Assembly (NCBI GenBank): GCA_964364175.1
Contig: CAYILR010000008.1
Location: 32,001 to 96,000 of the forward strand
DNA from: an uncultured Bacteriovoracaceae bacterium
GTDB lineage: Bacteria > Bdellovibrionota > UBA1018
DNA length: 64,000 nucleotides
Reading direction: 5' to 3'
Part shown: piece after piece, positions 36,607 to 63,858 of the stretch
How positions within the stretch are numbered: position 1 is the stretch's first letter
Layout of the letters: the number at the start of each line of letters is the position of its first letter
The notes under the pieces: model-generated
What the model saw: only the letters and a program-made list of their open reading frames with translations
Told to the model about the DNA's origin: nothing
The model's database searches: none
Position numbers and translations under genes: made by a program

Positions 36607-36989
36607 GCGAAGCACAGTTCAACACGATGCTGACCGAGATCGAGAAGCAGATCGACTCCATGGACGAGAACCCTCCGCACATCCGCACGCGAGTCCTGTT
36701 CTTCCAGGCCATGGCCAAGCTCCTCGACGCCGACCGCTACATCAAGCCCGTCTACTCCCCGGTGAGGCTGGCCGTGGCCTGCATGACGATCAAGGTCTCT
36801 GTTCCTTCGGGAGTGGAGGAACAGACCATCGAAAACATGGTCCGCGTCATGGCGAAGGGCGCCGCCAAGGGCGTCATCCTCTACGCCAAGCGCGTTGCCT
36901 TGGTCGCGGAGTTGGACCTCATCAGCATCGTCGACGACATCATCGCAGCGGCCTTGAAGGACGTGAACGTCAAATTGGAGCTTTCATGA
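36603..36989 (+). CDS. hypothetical protein
   Basis: 128-codon ORF with ATGA overlaps on both sides, directly upstream of rtcB. Confidence 0.5.
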   Translation: MSEAQFNTMLTEIEKQIDSMDENPPHIRTRVLFFQAMAKLLDADRYIKPVYSPVRLAVACMTIKVSVPSGVEEQTIENMVRVMAKGAAKGVILYAKRVALVAELDLISIVDDIIAAALKDVNVKLELS

Positions 36990-38212
36990 GCGGACCTGAG
37001 ATTCTCGACGAGGGCGGCGCACCCATCTACGCCTGGACCAAAGGTGTGGAGCGCGAGGCGAGCGCGATGGAGCAGGTGGCGAAGCTGTCGAGGCTCCCCA
37101 TCATCCACGATCACGTCGCAATCATGGCAGATATGCACATGGGCATCGGCGCGACGGTGGGCTCGGTCATCGCAACCAAGGGCGCGATCATTCCAAGCGC
37201 AGTCGGCGTCGACATTGGGTGCGGCGTCATAGCTACTCGCACGAGCTTGAAGGCGAGCGACCTGCCCGAGAGCCTCGGAGGTCTACGTTCTGCGATCGAG
37301 CGCGCGGTGCCCCACGGCCGCACCTCCAATGGCGTCGCCGGCCAGGACCGGGGAGCCTGGGGTTCGCTGCCTGGGCCGGTTGATGCCGCCTGGAAGGCAG
37401 GACTCCACGATCGCTGGCAGGCCGTCGTCGACAAGCACCCGAAGGCCGCCGCCAAGAACACCGTTCACCAGCTTGGAACTCTTGGAACGGGCAATCACTT
37501 CGTTGAGGTCTGCCTCGACGAGGAACAGCACGTCTGGGTGATGTTGCACTCGGGGTCGCGCGGGCTCGGCAACCGCTTCGGTGAATACTTCATCGAGCTT
37601 GCCAAGGAGGACATGGGTCACCTGATCCACAACCTCCCGGACAAGGACCTGGCGTACCTCGCCGAGGGCACCGAGCACTTCAAGGACTACGTCGAGGCCG
37701 TCTCGATGGCCCAGGACTTCGCGCGCGTGAACCGCGAGATCATGATGGACCGGACCCTCGGCGCCCTGCGCAACTCCGGTGTGCTTCCGCCGTTCCAGTG
37801 GAAGTTGGAAACCACGAACTGCCACCACAACTATGTACAGAAGGAAACTCACCTTGGTGAGGAGGTCTTCATCACCCGCAAGGGCGCCGTCCGGGCTGGC
37901 CTCGGCGACATGGGGATAATCCCCGGCGCAATGGGCCGAAAAAGTTTCATCGTGCGGGGCAAGGGCTGCGCAGAGGCGTTCCACTCGTGCTCCCACGGCG
38001 CGGGCCGGAAGATGAGCCGCACGCAGGCGAAAAAGACCTTCACGTTGGAGGACCACGTCAAAGCGACCGAGGGTGTCGAGTGCCGCAAGGACGCCGACGT
38101 CATTGACGAGACGCCGATGGCCTACAAGGACATCGACGCCGTCATGGCCGCGCAGAGCGACCTCGTCGAGATCGTCCATACCCTCCAGGCCGTCGTTTGC
38201 GTGAAGGGTTGA
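36986..38212 (+). CDS. rtcB: RtcB-family RNA 3'-phosphate/5'-OH ligase
   Basis: MADMHMGIGATVGSV, AVGVDIGCG, GTLGTGNHFVE, HSGSRGLG, CHHNY and SCSHGAGR match conserved RtcB metal and GMP-histidine motifs. Confidence 0.9.
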   Translation: MSGPEILDEGGAPIYAWTKGVEREASAMEQVAKLSRLPIIHDHVAIMADMHMGIGATVGSVIATKGAIIPSAVGVDIGCGVIATRTSLKASDLPESLGGLRSAIERAVPHGRTSNGVAGQDRGAWGSLPGPVDAAWKAGLHDRWQAVVDKHPKAAAKNTVHQLGTLGTGNHFVEVCLDEEQHVWVMLHSGSRGLGNRFGEYFIELAKEDMGHLIHNLPDKDLAYLAEGTEHFKDYVEAVSMAQDFARVNREIMMDRTLGALRNSGVLPPFQWKLETTNCHHNYVQKETHLGEEVFITRKGAVRAGLGDMGIIPGAMGRKSFIVRGKGCAEAFHSCSHGAGRKMSRTQAKKTFTLEDHVKATEGVECRKDADVIDETPMAYKDIDAVMAAQSDLVEIVHTLQAVVCVKG

Positions 38213-49277: not shown

Positions 49278-50600
49278 GTCTTTCGCCGGGGCACCAAGCA
49301 CCACCTCACCGTTCACCTTCACAGCGACGAATCCGTCGTAGTCGAATGTGGCGTCAAGCAACTCGAAGGTGAAGGCGACGGCTGGATTCCACGCCTTCGA
49401 GACAACCGCCAGCGTCGTGTTGCCCCGGTAGAGCTTCGCCACCGCCAAGTTGGTGCTTGTCTTTTCGATGACAACAGAAACTTGACTATTCAGTAACGTG
49501 AACGCAACAAACGGATAGACGGTCACGCTAGGGGTAAACGCGATGGCCATGGTGGTGGTGAGCCCGCGGCCCGCTCGCGCCATGGAGTCCATGCCGCCAG
49601 TAAACAGCACCTCAAAGGGAGCGCCGGCAGTCTTGTTGAGGGTCGTGGTTCCTATACCGACGGTCTCGGTTCCGGCGCCGACAGCCGATGACGCCTGGTT
49701 GAGCCAGGACGCCCCCACAGCCACGGTGCGGGGCACGGTGGCCAGACCGAAGGTCTCGGAGGCCCCGAGGGTGTGGGAGCCCTCTGGGGCCACCAGGAGC
49801 GCTGGGGAGGTGCCTTCCTCCAAGGTCGAGCCCAGCGACCCGGCGCTGAGGTTGTAGACACCGGGAAACAGAGGCCAGTGTTCCAGATCTGGGTACTTGC
49901 CAAGCGTCTGTGAGCAAGTTGCGGTCAGCTTCTCCTCAGTGATCGCCAGAGCCGTCAGCGTGGGGGCCTGGCCTTGGCCCCACGCCATCTGGCTCTCTTG
50001 CCCGGCCAAGAGAGTCACGTTGGTTGCGTTATCAACGAACACTTCGCGGTTCAAGTTGACGGCGTAGCGAGCACCAGCCGTGAAGGGAGCTTCGAGGGTG
50101 ACCCGGAGGGTGGCGCCGGATTGGGAGAGGCCGATGACGGCGGGTTGGCGGGCCAAGTCGATCGGTGAAATCTGCACAACGTCTGCATACACATCGAACT
50201 CGATGGTTGCGATGGTTGCGGAGAATACGACGTCGAACTCGGAGGGACTCACCCAGACGATGGAGGACACAATGAGATCAGCTACTGTGACCGCGAACGT
50301 CTGGGTCACGAACGCCGGGTTCATCGGCGTACCATCAGCCATCGACTGGGCTGTGCCGGCAATCGTGACCGTGTAGCCACCAGCCAACGGCGCCGGGGAG
50401 GTCAGCAGAAGCTCGAATTCCACATCCGACCGCCGGATCACGGATGTGATCGCCGGGAGCCCGCCACCAGGAGTCCAAAGTGCTGGGTTTTCAGGGTCTT
50501 CTGGGGCCGAAGTTCCGAGCTTTCGCATCGGGACATCGAACATCGCTAGGATGGATGATTGGCCTGATCCGTTTGCATAGATGAGCTTCGGTGCTGCCAT
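48600..50600 (-). CDS. large Thr/Ala/Val/Ser-rich protein, probably virion structural (fibre or baseplate-like)
   Basis: 666-codon ORF with beta-rich, low-charge composition and no enzyme motifs. Confidence 0.55.
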   Translation of the reverse strand: MAAPKLIYANGSGQSSILAMFDVPMRKLGTSAPEDPENPALWTPGGGLPAITSVIRRSDVEFELLLTSPAPLAGGYTVTIAGTAQSMADGTPMNPAFVTQTFAVTVADLIVSSIVWVSPSEFDVVFSATIATIEFDVYADVVQISPIDLARQPAVIGLSQSGATLRVTLEAPFTAGARYAVNLNREVFVDNATNVTLLAGQESQMAWGQGQAPTLTALAITEEKLTATCSQTLGKYPDLEHWPLFPGVYNLSAGSLGSTLEEGTSPALLVAPEGSHTLGASETFGLATVPRTVAVGASWLNQASSAVGAGTETVGIGTTTLNKTAGAPFEVLFTGGMDSMARAGRGLTTTMAIAFTPSVTVYPFVAFTLLNSQVSVVIEKTSTNLAVAKLYRGNTTLAVVSKAWNPAVAFTFELLDATFDYDGFVAVKVNGEVVLGAPAKDLLDPLLLDAAASNTALAVTLGAPTFPAVTFSVTFSANMVLTSYIGIGLRGFDSKDLFSFSANSLTSVVTTGANPPLSPGYQGTGKAAFGIHAEYLDAVDAVQVIIGLNEDAQPLQFTGSVSLLTGTEQVMDQVLLDQSHVLVGGNEIVVVFLHPKSWVGILAGVSLEIGGDEFSVVVPVIPLGQPAITSLLVQQPARWYHPRLSNEADIANMASFGPAAVIQTPN

Positions 50601-50714
50601 GCTTCAGAATGCTTGCCTTCTGCGATCGAGAGGAGCTAACCTCTGTTCATGGAGCCAAAGGCCAAGGGTTACCTCCAACGTAACACCCTCGACCAATCAC
50701 TTGCTCCGTTTCAT

Positions 50715-58833: not shown

Positions 58834-58918
58834 CGGAGAAAGGTGGAGTCGAACCACTCACGCTTGCGCGTGTCTCGGTTTAGCAGACCGATGCCAGACC
58901 GCTCCGGCGACATTCTCC
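58834..58918 (-). tRNA. tRNA-Ser (anticodon GCT), class II
   Basis: Hand fold of the reverse complement gives anticodon arm TCGGT CTGCTAA ACCGA, a long variable arm, and T-loop TTCGACT. There are mismatches at 7:66 and 49:65, and CCA is not encoded. Confidence 0.75.
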
Positions 58919-58972
58919 CCAATGCGCCATGCTTCTTTACACGGAAGAAGCTGGCGCCCCAGATAGACCTTC

Positions 58973-59060
58973 TGGCGGGTCAGGCAGGATTTGAACCTGC
59001 GGCACCCGAAGGTGCTCTTGTTTTCAAGACAAGCGCCTTAAGCCGCTCGGCCACTGACCC
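58973..59060 (-). tRNA. tRNA-Ser (anticodon TGA), class II
   Basis: GGGTCAG acceptor, anticodon arm CTTGT CTTGAAA ACAAG, variable arm AGCACCTTCGGGTGCCG, T-arm GCAGG TTCAAAT CCTGC, G73, and CCA encoded. Confidence 0.9.
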
Positions 59061-59069
59061 AAAAACTGA

Positions 59070-59156
59070 AGGAAGACTGAGCAGTCGAAGCCCAAGCCCT
59101 TGTGAGGCTCCCATCGCGTTCGAAGCGAGTCCGGCGCCCTGTCCGGTTAGTCTTCC
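59070..59156 (-). tRNA. tRNA-Ser (anticodon CGA), class II
   Basis: GGAAGAC/GTCTTCC acceptor, anticodon loop TTCGAAC, long variable arm, T-arm TGGGC TTCGACT GCTCA. CCA is not encoded. Confidence 0.75.
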
Positions 59157-59167
59157 ATACCTATCAA

Positions 59168-59255
59168 TGGCGGACAGCGTGGGTCACGATCCCAACACCC
59201 AAAGGTGCCGCTCGATTTCCAGTCGAGGGTCAGCCCAAGCCAGACTTCACTGTCC
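59168..59255 (-). tRNA. tRNA-Ser (anticodon GGA), class II
   Basis: GGACAGT/GCTGTCC acceptor, anticodon arm CTCGA CTGGAAA TCGAG, long variable arm, G73, and CCA encoded. The T-loop ATCGTGA is unusual. Confidence 0.8.
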
Positions 59256-59276
59256 ATACCTGTGAACAGAACACGA

Positions 59277-59365
59277 TGACGGTGGCGGGAGTCGAACCCG
59301 CGAGTACCTTGCGGCTAGTCCTCGCGTTTAGGGCGAGCGCCTTGTCCACCTTGGCTTGCACCGTC
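59277..59365 (-). tRNA. tRNA-Leu (anticodon TAA), class II, C at position 33
   Basis: Perfect acceptor GACGGTG/CACCGTC, anticodon arm CTCGC CCTAAAC GCGAG, long variable arm, T-arm GCGGG TTCGACT CCCGC, A73. CCA is not encoded. Confidence 0.75.
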
Positions 59366-59373
59366 GTTGAGAA

Positions 59374-59533
59374 GCTCGAAGAACAAGTGTTGAAACCGGA
59401 TATGCCTTTCGGCTACGCCGCGTCTTCCAATTCCGCCATACCTCCGTTGGTGGAGGCACCAGGATTTGAACCAATGGACGAGCTTTCGCTCAGCGTATTT
59501 TACAGATAACCAGTTGTCGTCGGTTCTTCGAGC
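59374..59533 (-). ncRNA. permuted tRNA-Tyr-like element or YrlA-like tRNA mimic, bracketed by an 11-bp inverted repeat
   Basis: The minus strand reads, in order: GCTCGAAGAAC (59533-59523); a spacer; CTGTAAAA then TACGC; variable hairpin GAGC GAAA GCTC; T-arm with TTCAAAT; TGCCTCC A CCA; AC; GGAGGTA TG GCG GAATTGGAAGA CGC G GCGTA; hairpin GCC GAAA GGC; a spacer; GTTCTTCGAGC (59384-59374). GCGTA pairs with TACGC, and GGAGGTA pairs with TGCCTCC. Confidence 0.55.
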
Positions 59534-59546
59534 AAGAAACAGAAAC

Positions 59547-59666
59547 AGAGAGCAAGTGGCGTCAGTGGAAGTTGGCACCGCGCCTACGGCCCTTTACAGG
59601 GGCCGCACTGGGAGTCGAACCCAGCGATCTCCGTTGTGTAGATAATCCACAGAACATCGGCTCTCT
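59547..59666 (-). ncRNA. structured tRNA-like element (7-bp closing stem plus four hairpins); identity unknown
   Basis: The AGAGAGC/GCTCTCT closing stem encloses an irregular hairpin, a canonical T-arm CTGGG TTCGACT CCCAG, a 7-bp hairpin with loop CTGTAAA, and a 9-bp hairpin. It does not fold into a cloverleaf on either strand. Confidence 0.4.
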
Positions 59667-59670
59667 TGAC

Positions 59671-59755
59671 TGGTGCGCAAGGCGGGACTCGAACCCACAC
59701 GCCCGAAGGCACTCGACTCTGAATCGAGCAAGACTACCAGTTCCATCACTTGCGC
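59671..59755 (-). tRNA. tRNA-Leu (anticodon CAG), class II
   Basis: GCGCAAG/CTTGCGC acceptor, anticodon arm CTCGA TTCAGAG TCGAG, variable arm TGCCTTCGGGCGT, T-loop TTCGAGT, A73, and CCA encoded. Confidence 0.9.
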
Positions 59756-59762
59756 AAGAACA

Positions 59763-59825
59763 AGCTCGTATGAGGACTCGAACCTCGTTCCCCTTCGGGA
59801 CGCCTCCTGCGCGCTGGCTACGAGC
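59763..59825 (-). ncRNA. 62-nt tRNA-like element lacking an anticodon loop
   Basis: GCTCGTA/TACGAGC acceptor (extendable to 10 bp), D-like hairpin GCC AGCGCGCAGGA GGC, a 4-bp stem with GAAG tetraloop (TCCC GAAG GGGA) where the anticodon arm should be, and T-arm GAGG TTCGAGT CCTC. Confidence 0.45.
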
Positions 59826-59829
59826 TTGA

Positions 59830-59914
59830 TGGTGCGTGAGGCGGGAGTCGAACCCGCACGTCCGAAGACACTAGGCTCTCGACCTAGCAAGGCTACCAGT
59901 TACATCACTCACGC
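59830..59914 (-). tRNA. tRNA-Leu (anticodon GAG), class II, C at position 33
   Basis: GCGTGAG/CTCACGC acceptor, anticodon arm CTAGG TCGAGAG CCTAG, variable arm, T-arm GCGGG TTCGACT CCCGC, A73, and CCA encoded. Confidence 0.85.
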
Positions 59915-59922
59915 ACACAAAA

Positions 59923-60010
59923 TGGTGGGAGAGGCCGGACTCGAACCGGCTCAGTCACAAGGACAACAGTTTTACAGACTGCCATAGCTCGCCATCTCTA
60001 TCGCTCTCCC
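59923..60010 (-). tRNA. tRNA-Tyr (anticodon GTA), class II
   Basis: GGGAGAG/CTCTCCC acceptor, D-arm ATAG/CTAT, anticodon arm GCAGT CTGTAAA ACTGT, 15-nt variable arm, T-arm GCCGG TTCGAGT CCGGC, A73, and CCA encoded. Confidence 0.9.
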
Positions 60011-60015
60011 GAAGT

Positions 60016-60100
60016 TGGTGCAGTGTGATGGAGTCGAACCACCCGAGCCGAAGCACCTGGGTTACAACCAGGCCCGCTACCCCTACGGTGTTAACACTGC
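60016..60100 (-). tRNA. second tRNA with anticodon GTA (Tyr), class II, Leu-like body
   Basis: GCAGTGT/ACACTGC acceptor, anticodon arm CCTGG TTGTAAC CCAGG, variable arm TGCTTCGGCTCG, T-arm GGTGG TTCGACT CCATC, A73, and CCA encoded. The D-stem is weak. Confidence 0.8.
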
Positions 60101-60105
60101 ATAGT

Positions 60106-60190
60106 TGGTGCGAGCGGCGGGAATCGAACCCGCATGACTTTCGTCGCAGGAGTCTAGATCCTGGGTGTCTGCCAGTTCCACCACGCTCGC
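60106..60190 (-). tRNA. tRNA-Leu (anticodon TAG), class II, C at position 33
   Basis: GCGAGCG/CGCTCGC acceptor, D-stem GTG/CAC, anticodon arm CAGGA TCTAGAC TCCTG, variable arm, T-arm GCGGG TTCGATT CCCGC, A73, and CCA encoded. Confidence 0.85.
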
Positions 60191-60194
60191 ATGT

Positions 60195-60278
60195 TGGTGC
60201 CGTCACCGAGACTTGAACTCGGACGCCCGAAGGCCCACGATTTTGAGGCGTGGTTGTCTACCTTTCCATCATGACGGC
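60195..60278 (-). tRNA. tRNA-Leu (anticodon CAA), class II
   Basis: GCCGTCA/TGACGGC acceptor, anticodon loop CTCAAAA with a C-T mismatch at 31:39, variable arm GGCCTTCGGGCGT, T-arm TCGAG... TTCAAGT, A73, and CCA encoded. Confidence 0.85.
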
Positions 60279-62413: not shown

Positions 62414-62590
62414 ATGAAGAATGACAACACTGTGTTACTACTACGACTTGTCGAGGCGGCTGAACGCTTGGGCGTTTCGCCATCGACCGTTCGGCGCCTT
62501 GTCCGCACAGGAAAACTTCGCTCGGTTGTGATCGGAAAAGAGCGCCGTGTTCCGCTCGTCGCACTCAATGAATTCGTCGGTGGCAAATAG
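62414..62590 (+). CDS. 58-aa excisionase/MerR-type HTH protein
   Basis: Hand translation gives MKNDNTVLLLRLVEAAERLGVSPSTVRRLVRTGKLRSVVIGKERRVPLVALNEFVGGK. The gene ends 2 nt before tnpB. Confidence 0.55.
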   Translation: MKNDNTVLLLRLVEAAERLGVSPSTVRRLVRTGKLRSVVIGKERRVPLVALNEFVGGK

Positions 62591-62592
62591 GG

Positions 62593-63858
62593 ATGATGAA
62601 GGCGTTTCGTTTCCGTGTTTACCCAACCGCCGAACAAGAGGCGAGGCTGGAGGCATGGGAAGGCGCTTTGAGATTCCTCTGGAATCTTGCTCATGAACAA
62701 CGCTTGATGGGACTGCACACCGTGCGTGACCGACGCCGCTATTACACGGCGGTTGATCAGCAACGCGGTCTAACAGAACTCCGGGCGGAGCTACCGTGGT
62801 TGGCAGATGTTCCACGCCATGTCTGCGCCCAGGTCCTCGTAGAGTTAGATAAGGCTTGGCAGCGGACTTTCAAGAAGTTGGGCGGAGAGCCTCGTTTCAA
62901 GAAATTGGGCCGTGATGGCGTCGCTATCTGCGAGACCGATCCCAAGGTATGGAGCTTCGTCAATGACCACATCCGTTTTCCAAAACTGGGCGTGCTGAAG
63001 ACAGTGCTGCACCGACCGATCGATGGTAAGCCAAAGACATGTAGCCTAACACGAGACGTAGATGCTTGGTTCGTGTCCATCGTTTGTGAGTTACCAGGTG
63101 AGGAGCCGAAGCCCGGTACGGCAACTGGGCCTTCGGTAGCTATTGACCGAGGCGTTGCCTTGCTGCTCGCTGACAGCGATGGGCGAACTGTCGAGAACCA
63201 GGAACATCTACAGCGAGCCAGGAAACACCTAGCTCGCGCGCAACGGCGGGTTAGCAAGAAAATGAAAGGATCGAAGAACCGCGAGAAGGCGAAACGCCGG
63301 GTTGCGGTTCTTCATCGAAAGATCCGACGACAACGAGATCACCAACTGCACGTCCAAAGCTCGTACTATGCCAAGAACCACGGCGTAGTTATTGTAGAGG
63401 ACCTCAACATCCGAGGCATGACGAAGTCAGCCTCCGGTACAAAGGAGAAGCCAGGTAAGAATGTAGCTGCAAAGTCCGGCCTCAACCGCTCGATTCTCGA
63501 TGCGGGTTGGGGACGCTTTGCTCAAATGCTCGACTACAAGCTGAAGTGGCGCGGTGGAATTCTTCTGAAGGTTCCAGCGCACTATTCGTCGCAGACGTGC
63601 GCGAAGTGTGGCCATGTCGATGCTAAAAATCGGGTATCCCAAGCGCGGTTTTGGTGTACAGCGTGCGATTACGAAGCCAACGCTGATATCAATGCTGCGT
63701 GTGTACTTCTCAGCCGTGGAATCCACGGTGCAGCAGTCTGTGGAGGATCTTCCGCCCTAGGGAAGCCTGCGAAGCAGAAACTCCGCGTTGCGAGACGTGG
63801 AAATCAACCAACGATAGGAATCTCCTCGGAGAAACCTATGGTCACGGGGAATTTGTGA
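62593..63858 (+). CDS. tnpB: TnpB (OrfB_IS605 family, RuvC-like RNA-guided nuclease)
   Basis: N-terminal MKAFRFRVYPTAEQE, RuvC residues in VAIDRGV, VVIVEDLN and NADINAA, and zinc finger CAKCGH...CTACDY. Confidence 0.85.
   Translation: MMKAFRFRVYPTAEQEARLEAWEGALRFLWNLAHEQRLMGLHTVRDRRRYYTAVDQQRGLTELRAELPWLADVPRHVCAQVLVELDKAWQRTFKKLGGEPRFKKLGRDGVAICETDPKVWSFVNDHIRFPKLGVLKTVLHRPIDGKPKTCSLTRDVDAWFVSIVCELPGEEPKPGTATGPSVAIDRGVALLLADSDGRTVENQEHLQRARKHLARAQRRVSKKMKGSKNREKAKRRVAVLHRKIRRQRDHQLHVQSSYYAKNHGVVIVEDLNIRGMTKSASGTKEKPGKNVAAKSGLNRSILDAGWGRFAQMLDYKLKWRGGILLKVPAHYSSQTCAKCGHVDAKNRVSQARFWCTACDYEANADINAACVLLSRGIHGAAVCGGSSALGKPAKQKLRVARRGNQPTIGISSEKPMVTGNL

What the first reader, a model, noticed from the sequence alone, without database searches (positions are those of the whole stretch)
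59374..59533. tRNA-Tyr-like gene with the 3' half upstream of the 5' half, bracketed by an 11-bp inverted repeat
Read 5' to 3' on the minus strand, the segment contains a tRNA 3' half followed by a 5' half.
- The 3' half is CTGTAAAA, TACGC, a GAGC-GAAA-GCTC variable hairpin, a T-arm with TTCAAAT, then TGCCTCC-A-CCA.
- Two nucleotides later comes a clean class II 5' half: GGAGGTA TG GCG GAATTGGAAGA CGC G GCGTA.
- GGAGGTA pairs with TGCCTCC (one G-U pair) and GCGTA pairs with TACGC, so the two halves form one cloverleaf whose ends lie in the anticodon loop.

The flanks also pair with each other. GCTCGAAGAAC (59533-59523) and GTTCTTCGAGC (59384-59374) are a perfect 11-bp inverted repeat. A further AACTGG/CCGGTT plus TAT/ATA helix extends it up to the anticodon-loop junction. 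I estimate the chance of an 11-bp perfect inverted repeat inside 160 nt at a few in a thousand.

Two readings fit this topology:
- A circularly permuted tRNA gene, which is known from some algae and archaea and not, to my knowledge, from phages. It would need end-joining, and an RtcB ligase is encoded in the same window.
- A YrlA-like Y RNA, a tRNA mimic whose termini lie in a long helix. In bacteria these are typically linked to rsr and rtcB.

One caveat is that the T-stem needs a 2-nt bulge (CCA-TT-GG / CCTGG), so decay cannot be excluded.
Basis: partly seen in the sequence, partly recalled or inferred. Interest (0 to 1): 0.85.

Follow-up and report, generated by a model that had tools for sequence, protein, structure and literature searches.

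The report
Phage Y RNA-like tRNA mimic
The "back-to-front tRNA" is real, but it is a phage copy of a known small RNA class (YrlA-type Y RNA, a tRNA mimic that normally partners the Ro60 protein), sitting with a second such RNA inside a tRNA gene array; it is not a permuted tRNA gene that must be re-joined.

Summary
On the minus strand, 59374-59533 carries a tRNA 3' half, ACCA, 2 nt, then a tRNA 5' half, closed by a perfect 11-bp helix. ARAGORN calls a tRNA once the halves are swapped.

The layout is that of YrlA, the bacterial and phage Y RNA-like tRNA mimic:
- a closing helix with a CCGA / CACUUG bulged-C Ro60-site motif;
- GGUUAUC;
- a variable arm, a T arm, a 7-bp acceptor-like hairpin and a D arm.

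A second such RNA (59546-59668) lies directly upstream.

Searching IMG/VR for these motifs found more than 120 phage loci. Forty-nine of them carry a Ro60 gene. A covariance model built only from those sequences scores the finding at 56.6 bits (E about 3e-13, full length) and its neighbour at 47.3 bits. All four helices covary across the family. The same model finds same-strand RNAs beside Ro60 in loci fetched by the protein alone.

No Ro60 gene lies in the window, and Rfam's own YrlA model does not report the element. About half of the family copies likewise sit in tRNA arrays.

Verdict: a new member of a known kind. The permuted-tRNA/RtcB reading is not supported.

The parts
59374..59533 (-). 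Element A: the whole YrlA-type Y RNA-like RNA (the finding), 160 nt
   Evidence: Model R1, built without window sequences, scores 56.6 bits, E = 2.7e-13, over model positions 1-137/137 with all 22 consensus pairs canonical. Fold z = -4.3.
59523..59533 (-). 5' strand of the closing helix (GCUCGAAGAAC)
   Evidence: Perfect 11-bp inverted repeat with 59374-59384. The homologous helix covaries in the family: 9 of 9 pairs show changes on both sides.
59520..59522 (-). Bulged C plus GA, which with the preceding C forms the CCGA core of the putative Ro60/Rsr-binding motif
   Evidence: CCGA is invariant in alignment A2. It corresponds to the GNCGAA / GGUCCGA motif described in PMC4201824.
59505..59511 (-). 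GGUUAUC motif, containing the conserved YUAY of YrlA. The GG belongs to helix 2 (59510-59515 pairs with 59394-59399).
   Evidence: Invariant in A2, which was selected for it. Bxz1 YrlA has GGUUACC / GGUUAUC. Helix 2 is longer in cognate than in non-cognate strand pairs: 6.9 vs 5.6 bp.
59498..59505 (-).
   Evidence: Subfamily members have UGAUGGAAA, GAAAA or AAAGAAAA at this place, so the GUA triplet is not conserved.
59493..59497 (-). UACGC, the 3' strand of the anticodon-stem-like helix; pairs with 59414-59418 (GCGUA)
   Evidence: Present in the minimum-energy fold and in the ARAGORN cloverleaf of the swapped sequence.
59480..59491 (-). Variable-arm hairpin GAGC-GAAA-GCUC (class II tRNA type)
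   Evidence: Long V arms also occur in L071:6019-6169, L129:3962-4115, L142 and L161.
59459..59477 (-). T arm CCA[UU]GG-UUCAAAU-CCUGG, with a 2-nt bulge in the stem
   Evidence: R1 aligns it with 'uu' as an insertion and all pairs standard. The T stem covaries in the family, 99.6% paired.
59448..59458 (-). Acceptor 3' strand UGCCUCC, then A73-like A, then encoded CCA
   Evidence: 56 of 66 family members have a 7-bp acceptor-like stem, and 16 have NCCA right after it.
59439..59447 (-). Loop nucleotides AC, then acceptor 5' strand GGAGGUA. The predicted RNase P cut is between 59446 and 59445.
   Evidence: Inferred from M. smegmatis YrlA, which has a 7-bp acceptor stem, is cut by RNase P and carries CCA (PMC4201824). 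Not tested here.
59420..59436 (-). D arm GCG-GAAUUGGAAGA-CGC (class II type, 3-bp stem)
   Evidence: Near-identical D arms occur in L071:6019-6169, L101:8610-8757, L129:3962-4115 and L161, and closely related ones in L142 and L140. The D stem covaries.
59404..59413 (-). Extra GNRA hairpin GCCGAAAGGC before the return strand AUAUCCGGUU
   Evidence: The same module, GCCGAAAGGCAUAUCCG, occurs in L124:8569-8703, which lies about 600 nt downstream of a Ro60 gene on the same strand. Similar modules occur in L074, L078, L111, L126, L142 and L161.
59374..59389 (-). CAC-UU, then the 3' strand of the closing helix GUUCUUCGAGC
   Evidence: The family 3' consensus is [A/C][A/C]CUU followed by G. The U and G are nearly invariant or invariant in A2 although not part of the search pattern.
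59546..59668 (-). Element B: a second Y RNA-like RNA (YrlB-like). It has a closing helix AGAGAGC/GCUCUCU with CCGA / CACUUG, GGAUUAUC, a T arm (59608-59624), a 7-bp hairpin with loop CUGUAAA at the acceptor position, and no D arm.
   Evidence: R1 scores 47.3 bits, E = 7.4e-11, full length. Fold z = -4.6. An ortholog lies in the related phage at L052:7479-7612, 45.2 bits.
59671..59755 (-). tRNA-Leu(CAG), 3 nt upstream of element B on the same strand
   Evidence: ARAGORN and Rfam.
59277..59365 (-). tRNA-Leu(UAA), 9 nt downstream of element A on the same strand
   Evidence: ARAGORN. No promoter or terminator consensus lies between the genes of the array.

Best explanation
Element A is a phage-encoded YrlA-type Y RNA-like non-coding RNA.

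Shown here:
- It consists of a long terminal helix carrying a Ro60-site-like motif (C-bulge-GA opposite CAC-UU-G) joined to a tRNA-like body.
- The body enters through the 3' strand of an anticodon-like stem, runs through the variable arm, T arm, acceptor 3' strand, ACCA, a 2-nt loop, the acceptor 5' strand and the D arm, and leaves through the 5' strand of the anticodon-like stem.
- It belongs to a large, covarying family of phage RNAs, many of them encoded beside Ro60.
- A second, partial mimic (element B, YrlB-like) lies immediately upstream.
- Both sit inside a same-strand class II tRNA array.

Inferred, by analogy with M. smegmatis YrlA/YrlB and D. radiodurans Y RNA:
- The two RNAs are co-transcribed with the tRNAs and released by the tRNA-processing nucleases.
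- The terminal helix binds a Ro60/Rsr ring protein, encoded either elsewhere in the phage genome or by the host.
- With its 7-bp acceptor stem and encoded ACCA, element A is probably cut by RNase P between 59446 and 59445 and trimmed to CCA. That would give two base-paired pieces of about 86 and 72 nt that stay together.
- The tRNA-like body then serves as the module that recruits a partner to Ro60, such as an exoribonuclease like PNPase or a tRNA-binding factor, to remodel RNA metabolism during infection.

No re-joining of the halves is required.
For: 1. Topology and motifs match published YrlA: a 5' GNCGAA-like motif, YUAY at the start of V, and the order V, T, acceptor-like stem-loop, D (PMC4201824). 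M. smegmatis YrlA has a 7-bp acceptor stem, is cut by RNase P, carries CCA, splits into 82 + 65 nt halves, and has a neighbouring YrlB with a T arm.
2. The known YrlA of mycobacteriophage Bxz1, upstream of Ro gp220, shows GCCGA..GGUUA(C/U)C..GGGUUCGAAUCCC.
3. The motif pattern found more than 120 IMG/VR loci. 111 of 152 matches have a closing helix of at least 6 bp anchored at CCGA, with 3' consensus [AC][AC]CUU-G. 49 loci carry a Ro60 ORF (phmmer against Bxz1 Ro, E <= 4e-37).
4. Rfam RF02553 YrlA hits family members at 31-45 bits.
5. Model R1, built from 66 family sequences with none from the window, scores A at 56.6 bits (E = 2.7e-13) and B at 47.3 bits (E = 7.4e-11), both full length. The next window hit, 29.5 bits, is a partial match at a tandem-tRNA junction.
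6. Circularity control: with the pattern motifs held fixed and all other positions shuffled, a sequence-only profile gives 40.3 bits for A against 11.6 +/- 4.6 for decoys (0 of 500 reach it), and 30.7 against 8.6 +/- 3.9 for B.
7. Covariation over 147 distinct sequences: 94.3% of cells paired against 63.1% in shuffles; covariation score 0.739 against 0.195 in shuffles and about 0.1 when partners are slid; 21 of 22 pairs change on both sides.
8. Independent validation of R1: in 20 loci fetched through the Ro60 protein alone with 1.5-kb flanks, every R1 match (24 across 13 loci; full-length matches of 50-97 bits in 10 loci) lies on the Ro60 strand, just upstream or downstream of the gene.
9. The special modules of A recur in family members.
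10. The Ro-site-like geometry with a stem of at least 7 bp occurs only twice in the 64-kb window, at A and B, against 0.53 expected.
Against: - No Ro60/TROVE gene lies in the 64-kb window or in a 4.6-kb extension. This was tested with Pfam on all long ORFs, with phmmer and with a 46-sequence Ro profile.
- Rfam's curated YrlA model reports nothing at this site even at E <= 10. The positive control Bxz1 also fails the gathering score, at 32.5 against 69 bits.
- The T stem has a 2-nt bulge.
- The published motif GNCGAAN0-1G is matched only in its CGA core: A reads ACCGAC.
- The related phage L052 lacks element A, so A is not conserved even among close relatives.
- Expression, Ro60 binding, RNase P cleavage and function are all inferred. 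No transcript data are available.
- The family was collected with a pattern partly derived from A and B. That circularity is addressed but not removed.
Confidence: 0.82

Rival explanations
1. Circularly permuted tRNA-Tyr gene. The transcript would be cut in the flanking helix, its ends joined (for example by the phage RtcB) into a circle or a re-ordered linear RNA, then opened at the acceptor end by RNase P and 3' trimming to give a functional tRNA.
For: The swapped halves are called a tRNA by ARAGORN. A73, CCA, a long variable arm and a GUA triplet are present. RtcB is encoded in the window.
Against: - The loop would have 8 nt.
- The GUA triplet is not conserved in the closest subfamily members.
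- The conserved CCGA/CUUG helix and GGUUAUC are unexplained by this model but are typical of Ro60-linked RNAs.
- No bulge-helix-bulge motif or splicing endonuclease was seen.
- RtcB is 21 kb away, and none of the family loci had RtcB nearby.
- The array already has two tRNA-Tyr(GUA) genes.
- A known precedent, M. smegmatis YrlA, shows the same architecture works as a two-piece RNA without joining.
Confidence: 0.03
2. Decayed or rearranged tRNA remnant with no function: a deletion derivative of a tandem pair of class II tRNA genes, or simply the junction of two tRNA genes.
For: - The T stem has a 2-nt bulge.
- The element lies in a dense tRNA array.
- The related phage L052 lacks it.
- Tandem-tRNA junctions do give partial hits to YrlA-type models (third hit; caveat in PMC4201824).
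Against: - The match to R1 is full length and includes the non-tRNA parts: the closing helix, CCGA, GGUUAUC, the CUUG strand, and the GNRA hairpin with AUAUCCG.
- The decoy control shows about 29 bits come from positions outside the search pattern.
- All 22 consensus pairs are standard in A.
- The acceptor and anticodon-stem strands pair with each other, not with flanking tRNA parts.
- L052 shows no tandem Tyr pair at this position.
Confidence: 0.05
3. A Ro60-independent tRNA mimic. The array-embedded copies would work without Ro60, for example as a chargeable two-piece tRNA-Tyr-like decoy, a sponge for host tRNA-targeting nucleases or tRNA-binding enzymes, or a substrate or sensor for the RtcB repair pathway.
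For: - No Ro60 lies in 68.6 kb around the element.
- 56 of 150 family copies sit within 300 nt of same-strand tRNA genes in loci without Ro60.
- The element has a complete tRNA-Tyr-like body with ACCA.
- RtcB is in the window.
Against: - The Ro-site-like helix is kept intact in array-embedded copies, including A and B.
- At least two jumbo-phage contigs with array-embedded copies encode Ro60 elsewhere on the same contig: 3300034072_000926 and 3300034073_003340.
- The window covers only part of the genome.
Confidence: 0.08

Closest known systems
YrlA / YrlB of Mycobacterium smegmatis (Chen et al. 2014, RNA 20:1715; PMC4201824)
   Same: - Two adjacent Y RNA-like genes.
- YrlA has a terminal helix with a CGA-type motif and a tRNA-like body in the order V, T, acceptor-like stem-loop, D.
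- The acceptor stem has 7 bp. The RNA is cut by RNase P and carries CCA, giving two halves (82 + 65 nt there, about 86 + 72 nt predicted here).
- The partner RNA (YrlB, element B here) has a T arm only.
   Different: - Here the CCA is encoded; in M. smegmatis the CA is added.
- The tRNA body here is class II (long variable arm, 3-bp D stem) with a full 5-bp anticodon-like stem and an extra GNRA hairpin.
- The genes lie inside a tRNA array, with no rsr within 68 kb.
- Binding to Rsr and processing are shown for M. smegmatis and only inferred here.
Rfam RF02553 YrlA, and the YrlA of mycobacteriophage Bxz1 upstream of Ro gp220
   Same: Same order of helices (closing stem, T arm, acceptor-like stem, D arm). 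Same GCCGA...GGUUA(C/U)C...T-loop signature. Phage-encoded.
   Different: RF02553 gives no match to element A at E <= 10. Bxz1 scores 32.5 bits and other family members 31-45 bits, all below the gathering score of 69. Bxz1 RNAs lie next to Ro; the 3' strand there reads CACCAUGU, not CACUUG.
Metazoan Y RNAs and D. radiodurans Yrn1 (Ro60-binding helix)
   Same: A bulged helix: 5' ..C-C-GA.. opposite ..UU-G.., with the C bulged. The vertebrate motif GGUCCGA is quoted in PMC4201824. From my own memory, unverified here, the human Y1/Y3 3' strand reads CACUUGAC.
   Different: Metazoan Y RNAs lack a tRNA-like body. Yrn1 has its T and D arms in a different orientation.
Circularly permuted tRNA genes of Cyanidioschyzon merolae and other algae and archaea (from my own knowledge)
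   Same: The 3' half lies upstream of the 5' half, and the flanks pair.
   Different: Those use a bulge-helix-bulge motif, a splicing endonuclease and a circular intermediate to make a real tRNA. Here the flanks carry a Ro60-site motif, the junction loop has 8 nt and is not conserved, and relatives are linked to Ro60.
Phage Ro60 / Y RNA-like pairs (Thermus phage phiLo Yrl1/Yrl2, PMC12135203; also CcrColossus and Bacillus phage G as cited there)
   Same: Phage-encoded Y RNA-like RNAs, often in pairs, with a CGAA-type motif. They are proposed to recruit host PNPase through Ro60.
   Different: Those RNAs lie immediately upstream of the phage Ro60 gene. Here no Ro60 gene is nearby and the RNAs are embedded in a tRNA array.

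Membership tests
YrlA-type Y RNA-like RNAs (Chen et al. 2014) | tRNA-like domain with the module order V region, T arm, acceptor-like stem-loop, D arm, enclosed by a stem that leads to the RNA termini | tested here: met
   Sequence anatomy. ARAGORN calls a tRNA after the halves are swapped. R1 alignment is full length with all 22 pairs standard.
YrlA-type Y RNA-like RNAs (Chen et al. 2014) | Short 5' motif GNCGAAN0-1G (the putative Rsr/Ro60 site) | tested here: inconclusive
   A reads A-C-C-G-A-C-G, matching the CGA core and 4 of 6 defined positions. B reads G-C-C-G-A-U-G, matching 5 of 6. The first position is base-paired and covaries in the family (GC 39, GU 18, AU 7, UA 2). CCGAC occurs in many family members, including some in Ro60-linked loci.
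YrlA-type Y RNA-like RNAs (Chen et al. 2014) | Conserved YUAY at the start of the V region | tested here: met
   GGUUAUC lies at 59505-59511. It is present in Bxz1 and throughout the family (though that set was selected for it). B has GGAUUAUC.
YrlA-type Y RNA-like RNAs (Chen et al. 2014) | Encoded within 4 kb of a Ro60/TROVE gene on the same strand (the operational criterion of the original survey) | tested here: not met
   No TROVE gene was found in the window or the L042 extension. This is a search criterion, not a structural property. 56 of 150 family copies are also tRNA-linked without Ro60 in the locus, and two such contigs carry Ro60 elsewhere.
YrlA-type Y RNA-like RNAs (Chen et al. 2014) | Bound by Ro60/Rsr in vivo; modified by tRNA enzymes (TruB, DusA) | not testable with these tools
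   Needs immunoprecipitation, EMSA and modification mapping.
Rfam RF02553 (YrlA) | Score at or above the curated gathering threshold (69 bits) | tested here: not met
   No match at E <= 10 in 59150-59800. The known phage YrlA of Bxz1 also fails, at 32.5 bits, as do 12 family RNAs at 31-45 bits. The curated model does not cover the phage diversity.
Phage Y RNA-like family defined here (model R1) | Full-length significant match to a covariance model built without the query, with covarying helices, and with the model validated on Ro60-adjacent RNAs | tested here: met
   A scores 56.6 bits, E = 2.7e-13; B scores 47.3 bits. Decoy control. Covariation. Validation on loci fetched by Ro60 protein.
Circularly permuted tRNA genes | The re-joined product is a canonical tRNA with a 7-nt anticodon loop and a conserved anticodon | tested here: not met
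   The junction gives an 8-nt loop (ARAGORN 'gtaa'). The GUA triplet is not conserved in subfamily relatives.
Circularly permuted tRNA genes | Processing signal at the flanks (bulge-helix-bulge) with a cognate endonuclease and ligase; a circular intermediate | tested here: inconclusive
   The flank helices are 11 bp, an internal loop, then 6 + 3 bp, with no 3-4-3 bulge-helix-bulge geometry. RtcB is present in the window but unlinked. Circular RNA cannot be tested here.
Ordinary tRNA gene or tandem tRNA junction | A contiguous cloverleaf detectable by tRNA finders | tested here: not met
   ARAGORN and Rfam tRNA find nothing in 59366-59670.

The most novel reading that the evidence does not exclude
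Array-embedded copies such as element A may work without Ro60. After RNase P cleavage and trimming to the encoded CCA, the two-piece class II tRNA(Tyr)-like body would be recognised, and perhaps charged, by tRNA enzymes. It would then act as a decoy or sensor for host tRNA-targeting defences or for the phage RtcB repair pathway. That would make it a phage counter-defence RNA rather than a Ro60 cofactor.
Probability: 0.08. Interest if true: 0.75.

Novelty: new member of a known kind. Interest (0 to 1): 0.4.

Why it matters
The finding itself turns an apparently exotic "permuted phage tRNA" into a recognisable member of the Y RNA-like (YrlA) class, so it should not be counted as a new kind of gene.

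Three side results may interest specialists:
- **Abundance.** YrlA-type RNAs appear far more common in uncultivated, often jumbo, phages than the 22 phages reported in 2014.
- **Placement.** About half of those copies sit next to same-strand tRNA genes instead of next to Ro60. The original survey excluded that placement by design, and I found no description of it in the searched literature.
- **Acceptor end.** Most phage copies have a 7-bp acceptor-like stem, and about a quarter encode NCCA. This suggests that RNase P cleavage into two-piece RNAs, shown so far only for M. smegmatis YrlA, may be common.

These points give concrete candidates for testing what the tRNA-like module of Y RNAs does during infection.

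Tried and rejected
- **Similarity to cultured phages.** BLASTN of the region against INPHARED phages, near and distant modes, gave no match.
- **Exact core in IMG/VR.** An exact 25-mer of the core gave no match.
- **Synteny through flanking proteins.**
  - The metallophosphatase relatives in IMG/VR (31 loci) are unrelated phages without the array.
  - The 206-aa neighbour has no IMG/VR relative.
  - Its 7 database homologs sit in non-syntenic contexts.
- **Pseudo-ORF search.** I searched the spurious ORF that gene callers place over the element, hoping to find related contigs. Only the window's own copy came back.
- **Extending the window.** The left extension failed because the 819-aa protein is not on record. 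The right extension (L042, 4.6 kb) holds homing-endonuclease-like and methyltransferase genes but no Ro60.
- **Ro60 in the window.** Pfam and PHROGs on all long ORFs, phmmer, and a 46-sequence Ro profile gave only a 16-bit hit to an out-of-frame segment, judged spurious.
- **Third candidate upstream of the tmRNA.** A weak Ro-motif hit at 50502-50708(+) is not supported by model R1.
- **RtcB linkage.** No family locus has RtcB nearby.
- **First search pattern.** It also returned 8 false positives, a tRNA followed by a promoter-like CACTTGTTCT with no closing helix.
- **The GUA 'anticodon' as a conserved feature.** Rejected. It is absent from subfamily relatives of A, and the CUGUAAA loop of B is GCAA in its L052 ortholog.
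Full report

Yes. Read on the minus strand, 59533 to 59374 is, in order: GCUCGAAGAAC, C, GA, CGAC, AACUGG, U, UAU, CUGUAAAA, UACGC, U, GAGC-GAAA-GCUC, GU, CCA[UU]GG-UUCAAAU-CCUGG, UGCCUCC, A, CCA, AC, GGAGGUA, UG, GCG-GAAUUGGAAGA-CGC, G, GCGUA, GCCGAAAGGC, AUAU, CCGGUU, UCAA, CAC, UU, GUUCUUCGAGC.
- The 11-bp inverted repeat is perfect.
- The 160-nt RNA folds at -58.8 kcal/mol (z = -4.3; 0 of 200 shuffles as stable). The fold contains the flank helices, the acceptor pairing and the UACGC/GCGUA pairing.
- ARAGORN and Rfam see no tRNA at this site. When the two halves are swapped in silico, ARAGORN calls a tRNA: Tyr-GUA if one A is dropped, otherwise a tRNA with an 8-nt loop.
- RtcB is encoded at 36986-38212(+).

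The window looks like part of a large phage genome from Hainich groundwater metagenomes. It carries a tmRNA, RecA, a sigma-like protein, primase, helicase, TnpB, and a class II tRNA array at 58834-60278 on the minus strand.

**2. What else is there?**

The 305-nt gap between tRNA-Leu(CAG) and tRNA-Leu(UAA) holds two structured RNAs, not one. Element B (59546-59668; fold z = -4.6) lies directly upstream of the finding (element A). Both are closed by a helix of the same design:
- A: 5' ..GAAGAAC-C-GA.. opposite ..CAC-UU-GUUCUUC..
- B: 5' ..AGAGAGC-C-GA.. opposite ..CAC-UU-GCUCUCU..

In both, the C is bulged and GA pairs with UU. This geometry with a stem of at least 7 bp occurs only at these two places in the 64-kb window, against 0.53 expected. 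It resembles the Ro60-binding helix of Y RNAs. The vertebrate 5' motif GGUCCGA and the bacterial GNCGAAN0-1G are quoted in PMC4201824. The human 3' strand CACUUGAC is from my own memory and was not verified here.

**3. Comparison with published YrlA**

Chen et al. 2014 (PMC4201824) describe YrlA as follows:
- a 5' GNCGAA-type motif;
- a conserved YUAY that begins a V region;
- a T arm, an acceptor-like stem-loop and a D arm, all enclosed by the terminal stem.

M. smegmatis YrlA has a 7-bp acceptor stem, is cut by RNase P, carries CCA, and persists as Rsr-bound halves of 82 and 65 nt. A neighbouring YrlB has a T arm only. YrlA-like RNAs were reported next to Ro60 in 22 phages.

Element A has this module order, with GGUUAUC (59505-59511) as the YUAY motif. 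Element B is the YrlB-like partner.

As a positive control, Rfam RF02553 (YrlA) hits the RNA upstream of Ro gp220 of mycobacteriophage Bxz1, but only at 32.5 bits against a gathering score of 69. It reports nothing for element A even at E <= 10. That negative result has to be explained.

**4. Relatives**

Routes that failed:
- protein synteny;
- a pseudo-ORF search;
- BLASTN against cultured phages.

Motif scans of IMG/VR worked.
- The pattern CCGA..GGTTCRANTCC..CACTTGYTCT gave 12 loci. Four of them have real closing helices whose outer pairs differ from A and B.
- One of these, L052, is a related phage: its sigma-like protein is 57% identical and its RecA 41% identical. It has the same order of class II tRNAs and an ortholog of B, but no A and no tRNA-Leu(UAA).
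Many are on contigs of 100-480 kb, often with 2-4 tandem copies.
- 111 of 152 matches have a closing helix of at least 6 bp anchored on the first C of CCGA, with 3' consensus [A/C][A/C]CUU-G.
- 49 of the loci contain a Ro60 ORF (phmmer against Bxz1 Ro, E <= 4e-37).
- RF02553 hits 12 of the RNAs at 31-45 bits.

So the pattern retrieves genuine Ro60-linked YrlA-type RNAs. Rfam's model is simply too narrow for the phage diversity.

**5. Membership test for A and B**
- I aligned 66 family sequences, none from the window (A2). RNAalifold recovers the closing stem, T stem, acceptor-like stem and D stem, with compensatory changes in 19 of 22 pairs.
- The covariance model R1 built from A2 scores element A at 56.6 bits (E = 2.7e-13) and element B at 47.3 bits (E = 7.4e-11). 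Both matches are full length, and all 22 pairs of A are standard.
- The next window hit, 29.5 bits, is a partial match across a tandem tRNA junction. This is the false-positive type Chen et al. warned about.
- The search pattern was partly derived from A and B, so I ran a decoy control. With the pattern letters fixed and all other positions shuffled, a sequence-only profile gives 40.3 bits for A against 11.6 +/- 4.6 (0 of 500 decoys reach it), and 30.7 against 8.6 +/- 3.9 for B.
- Over 100 sources R1 finds 152 matches. On 147 distinct sequences, 94.3% of cells pair against 63.1% in shuffles. The covariation score is 0.739, against 0.195 in shuffles and about 0.1 with slid partners.
- As an independent check of R1, I fetched 80 loci through the Ro60 protein alone with 1.5-kb flanks and searched 20 of them. 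Every R1 match there (24, across 13 loci; full-length matches of 50-97 bits in 10 loci) lies on the Ro60 strand, just upstream or downstream of the gene. A and B score within that range.

**6. The unusual features of A are family features**
- Its class II-type D arm (GGCGGAAUUGGnAnACGC) recurs in L071:6019-6169, L101:8610-8757, L129:3962-4115 and L161, with closely related arms in L142 and L140.
- Its GNRA hairpin followed by AUAUCCG recurs in L124:8569-8703, about 600 nt downstream of a Ro60 gene on the same strand, and in L074, L078, L111, L126, L142 and L161.
- 56 of 66 members have a 7-bp acceptor-like stem, and 16 have NCCA directly after it.
- Helix 2 (AACUGG/CCGGUU in A) is supported: cognate strand pairs give longer helices than non-cognate pairs, mean 6.9 against 5.6 bp, with 18 of 80 at 9 bp or more against about 2 expected.
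- The CUGUAAAA that looked like a Tyr anticodon loop occupies the place of a purine-rich linker that reads UGAUGGAAA, GAAAA or AAAGAAAA in subfamily relatives.
- The CUGUAAA hairpin loop of B is GCAA in its L052 ortholog.

I therefore see no evidence that GUA acts as an anticodon.

**7. Genomic setting**
- Of 150 R1 matches in 84 loci, 69 lie within 300 nt of a same-strand tRNA gene. 56 of these are in loci without Ro60. A further 51 are in Ro60 loci without an adjacent tRNA.
- The window's arrangement, Y RNA-likes inside a tRNA array with no Ro60 nearby, is therefore common among uncultivated phages.
- No Ro60 gene is found in the window or in a 4.6-kb extension.
- Two jumbo contigs with array-embedded copies (3300034072_000926 and 3300034073_003340) do carry Ro60 elsewhere. 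There is no overlap with the RNA loci and no R1 hit next to those Ro60 genes. A Ro60 gene outside this 64-kb window is therefore plausible.
- RtcB is not linked to family loci.
- No promoter or terminator consensus lies inside the array. This is weakly consistent with co-transcription with the tRNAs.

**8. Mechanism**

*Shown:* the anatomy, family membership, covariation of four helices, and the Ro60 linkage of relatives.

*Inferred:*
- A and B are released from the tRNA-array transcript.
- Their CCGA/CUUG helix binds a Ro60/Rsr ring.
- A is cut by RNase P between 59446 and 59445 and trimmed to its encoded CCA, as M. smegmatis YrlA is. That would give a base-paired two-piece RNA of about 86 + 72 nt.
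- The tRNA-like body recruits a partner to Ro60. PNPase is the known partner for D. radiodurans Y RNA and is proposed for Thermus phage phiLo (PMC12135203).

The 2-nt bulge in the T stem could weaken recognition by tRNA enzymes. That has not been tested.

**9. Rival explanations**
- **Permuted tRNA gene re-joined by RtcB (about 3%).** It does not explain the conserved non-tRNA parts or the Ro60 linkage, and it would give an 8-nt loop.
- **Decayed tRNA remnant or tandem junction (about 5%).** It is contradicted by the full-length model match, the decoy control, and the absence of a tandem Tyr pair at this position in L052.
- **Ro60-independent mimic, decoy or sensor (about 8%).** It is not excluded, because Ro60 is missing locally. 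This is the most novel surviving reading.

**10. Novelty and score**

YrlA-type RNAs and their presence in phages are known (PMC4201824; PMC12135203). Two literature searches found no description of copies embedded in tRNA arrays, but that is a modest extension. I classify the finding as a new member of a known kind, interest about 0.4.

Its second interpretation is supported and its headline interpretation is not.

Noticed in passing
window 59173-59262 (-) and 59073-59163 (-): Two class II tRNA-like genes that fold as cloverleafs but are missed by ARAGORN and Rfam. Their anticodon loops are CUGGAAA (Ser-GGA) and UUCGAAC (Ser-CGA), and their T loops are unusual (AUCGUGA, CUUCGAC). Both are conserved in the related phage at L052:7618-7830.
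   Followed up: partly
window 59756-59829 (-): A 74-nt mini tRNA-like element between tRNA-Leu(GAG) and tRNA-Leu(CAG). It has a 10-bp terminal stem, a small hairpin and a T arm (GAGG-UUCGAGU-CCUC), but no D or anticodon arm and no CCA (z = -2.2).
   Followed up: partly
window 60016-60100 (-) and 59923-60010 (-): Neither ARAGORN tRNA-Tyr(GUA) gene reaches the Rfam tRNA gathering score. The 60016-60100 copy has an unusual D-arm region.
   Followed up: no
window 59424-59438 and 59557-59571: A 15-nt stretch of the D arm of element A is 80% complementary to the 3' part of element B, so the two RNAs could pair with each other. This may be chance.
   Followed up: no
window 58925-58957 (-): A stable hairpin (GCGCCAGCUUCUU-CCGUGUA-AAGAAGC-A-UGGCGC) lies in the spacer between the two annotated tRNA-Ser genes (z = -2.5).
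   Followed up: no
window 62414-63858 (+) and L042:1-2484 (beyond the window end): A TnpB (IS605 OrfB / Cas12f-like) gene with a small HTH ORF lies just upstream of the operon that contains the tRNA array. GIY-YIG and LAGLIDADG homing-endonuclease-like ORFs lie just past the window end.
   Followed up: partly
L124:7254-7478 (-): A permuted (two-piece) tmRNA (RF04321, 71 bits) sits in the same large tRNA array as a Ro60 gene and two YrlA-like RNAs on a 165-kb IMG/VR contig.
   Followed up: no
L015:11527-11603 and L016:11814-11890: ARAGORN calls tRNAs with an 8-nt anticodon loop ('gagg') in two IMG/VR contigs fetched through the metallophosphatase.
   Followed up: no
L213 and L222 (IMG/VR contigs 3300034072_000926 and 3300034073_003340): In two jumbo-phage contigs the Ro60 gene has no Y RNA-like match within 1.5 kb, while several copies sit in tRNA arrays elsewhere on the same contig. 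So the Ro60 gene and its presumed RNAs can be unlinked in phage genomes.
   Followed up: partly
ENA contig carrying P0005 (22,287 bp; no DNA available): A related phage contig places RtcB, an RF-1-like protein and the homolog of the array-flanking 206-aa protein side by side. It also encodes a 513-aa protein with only VWA-domain hits, which could be a divergent Ro60-like protein.
   Followed up: no
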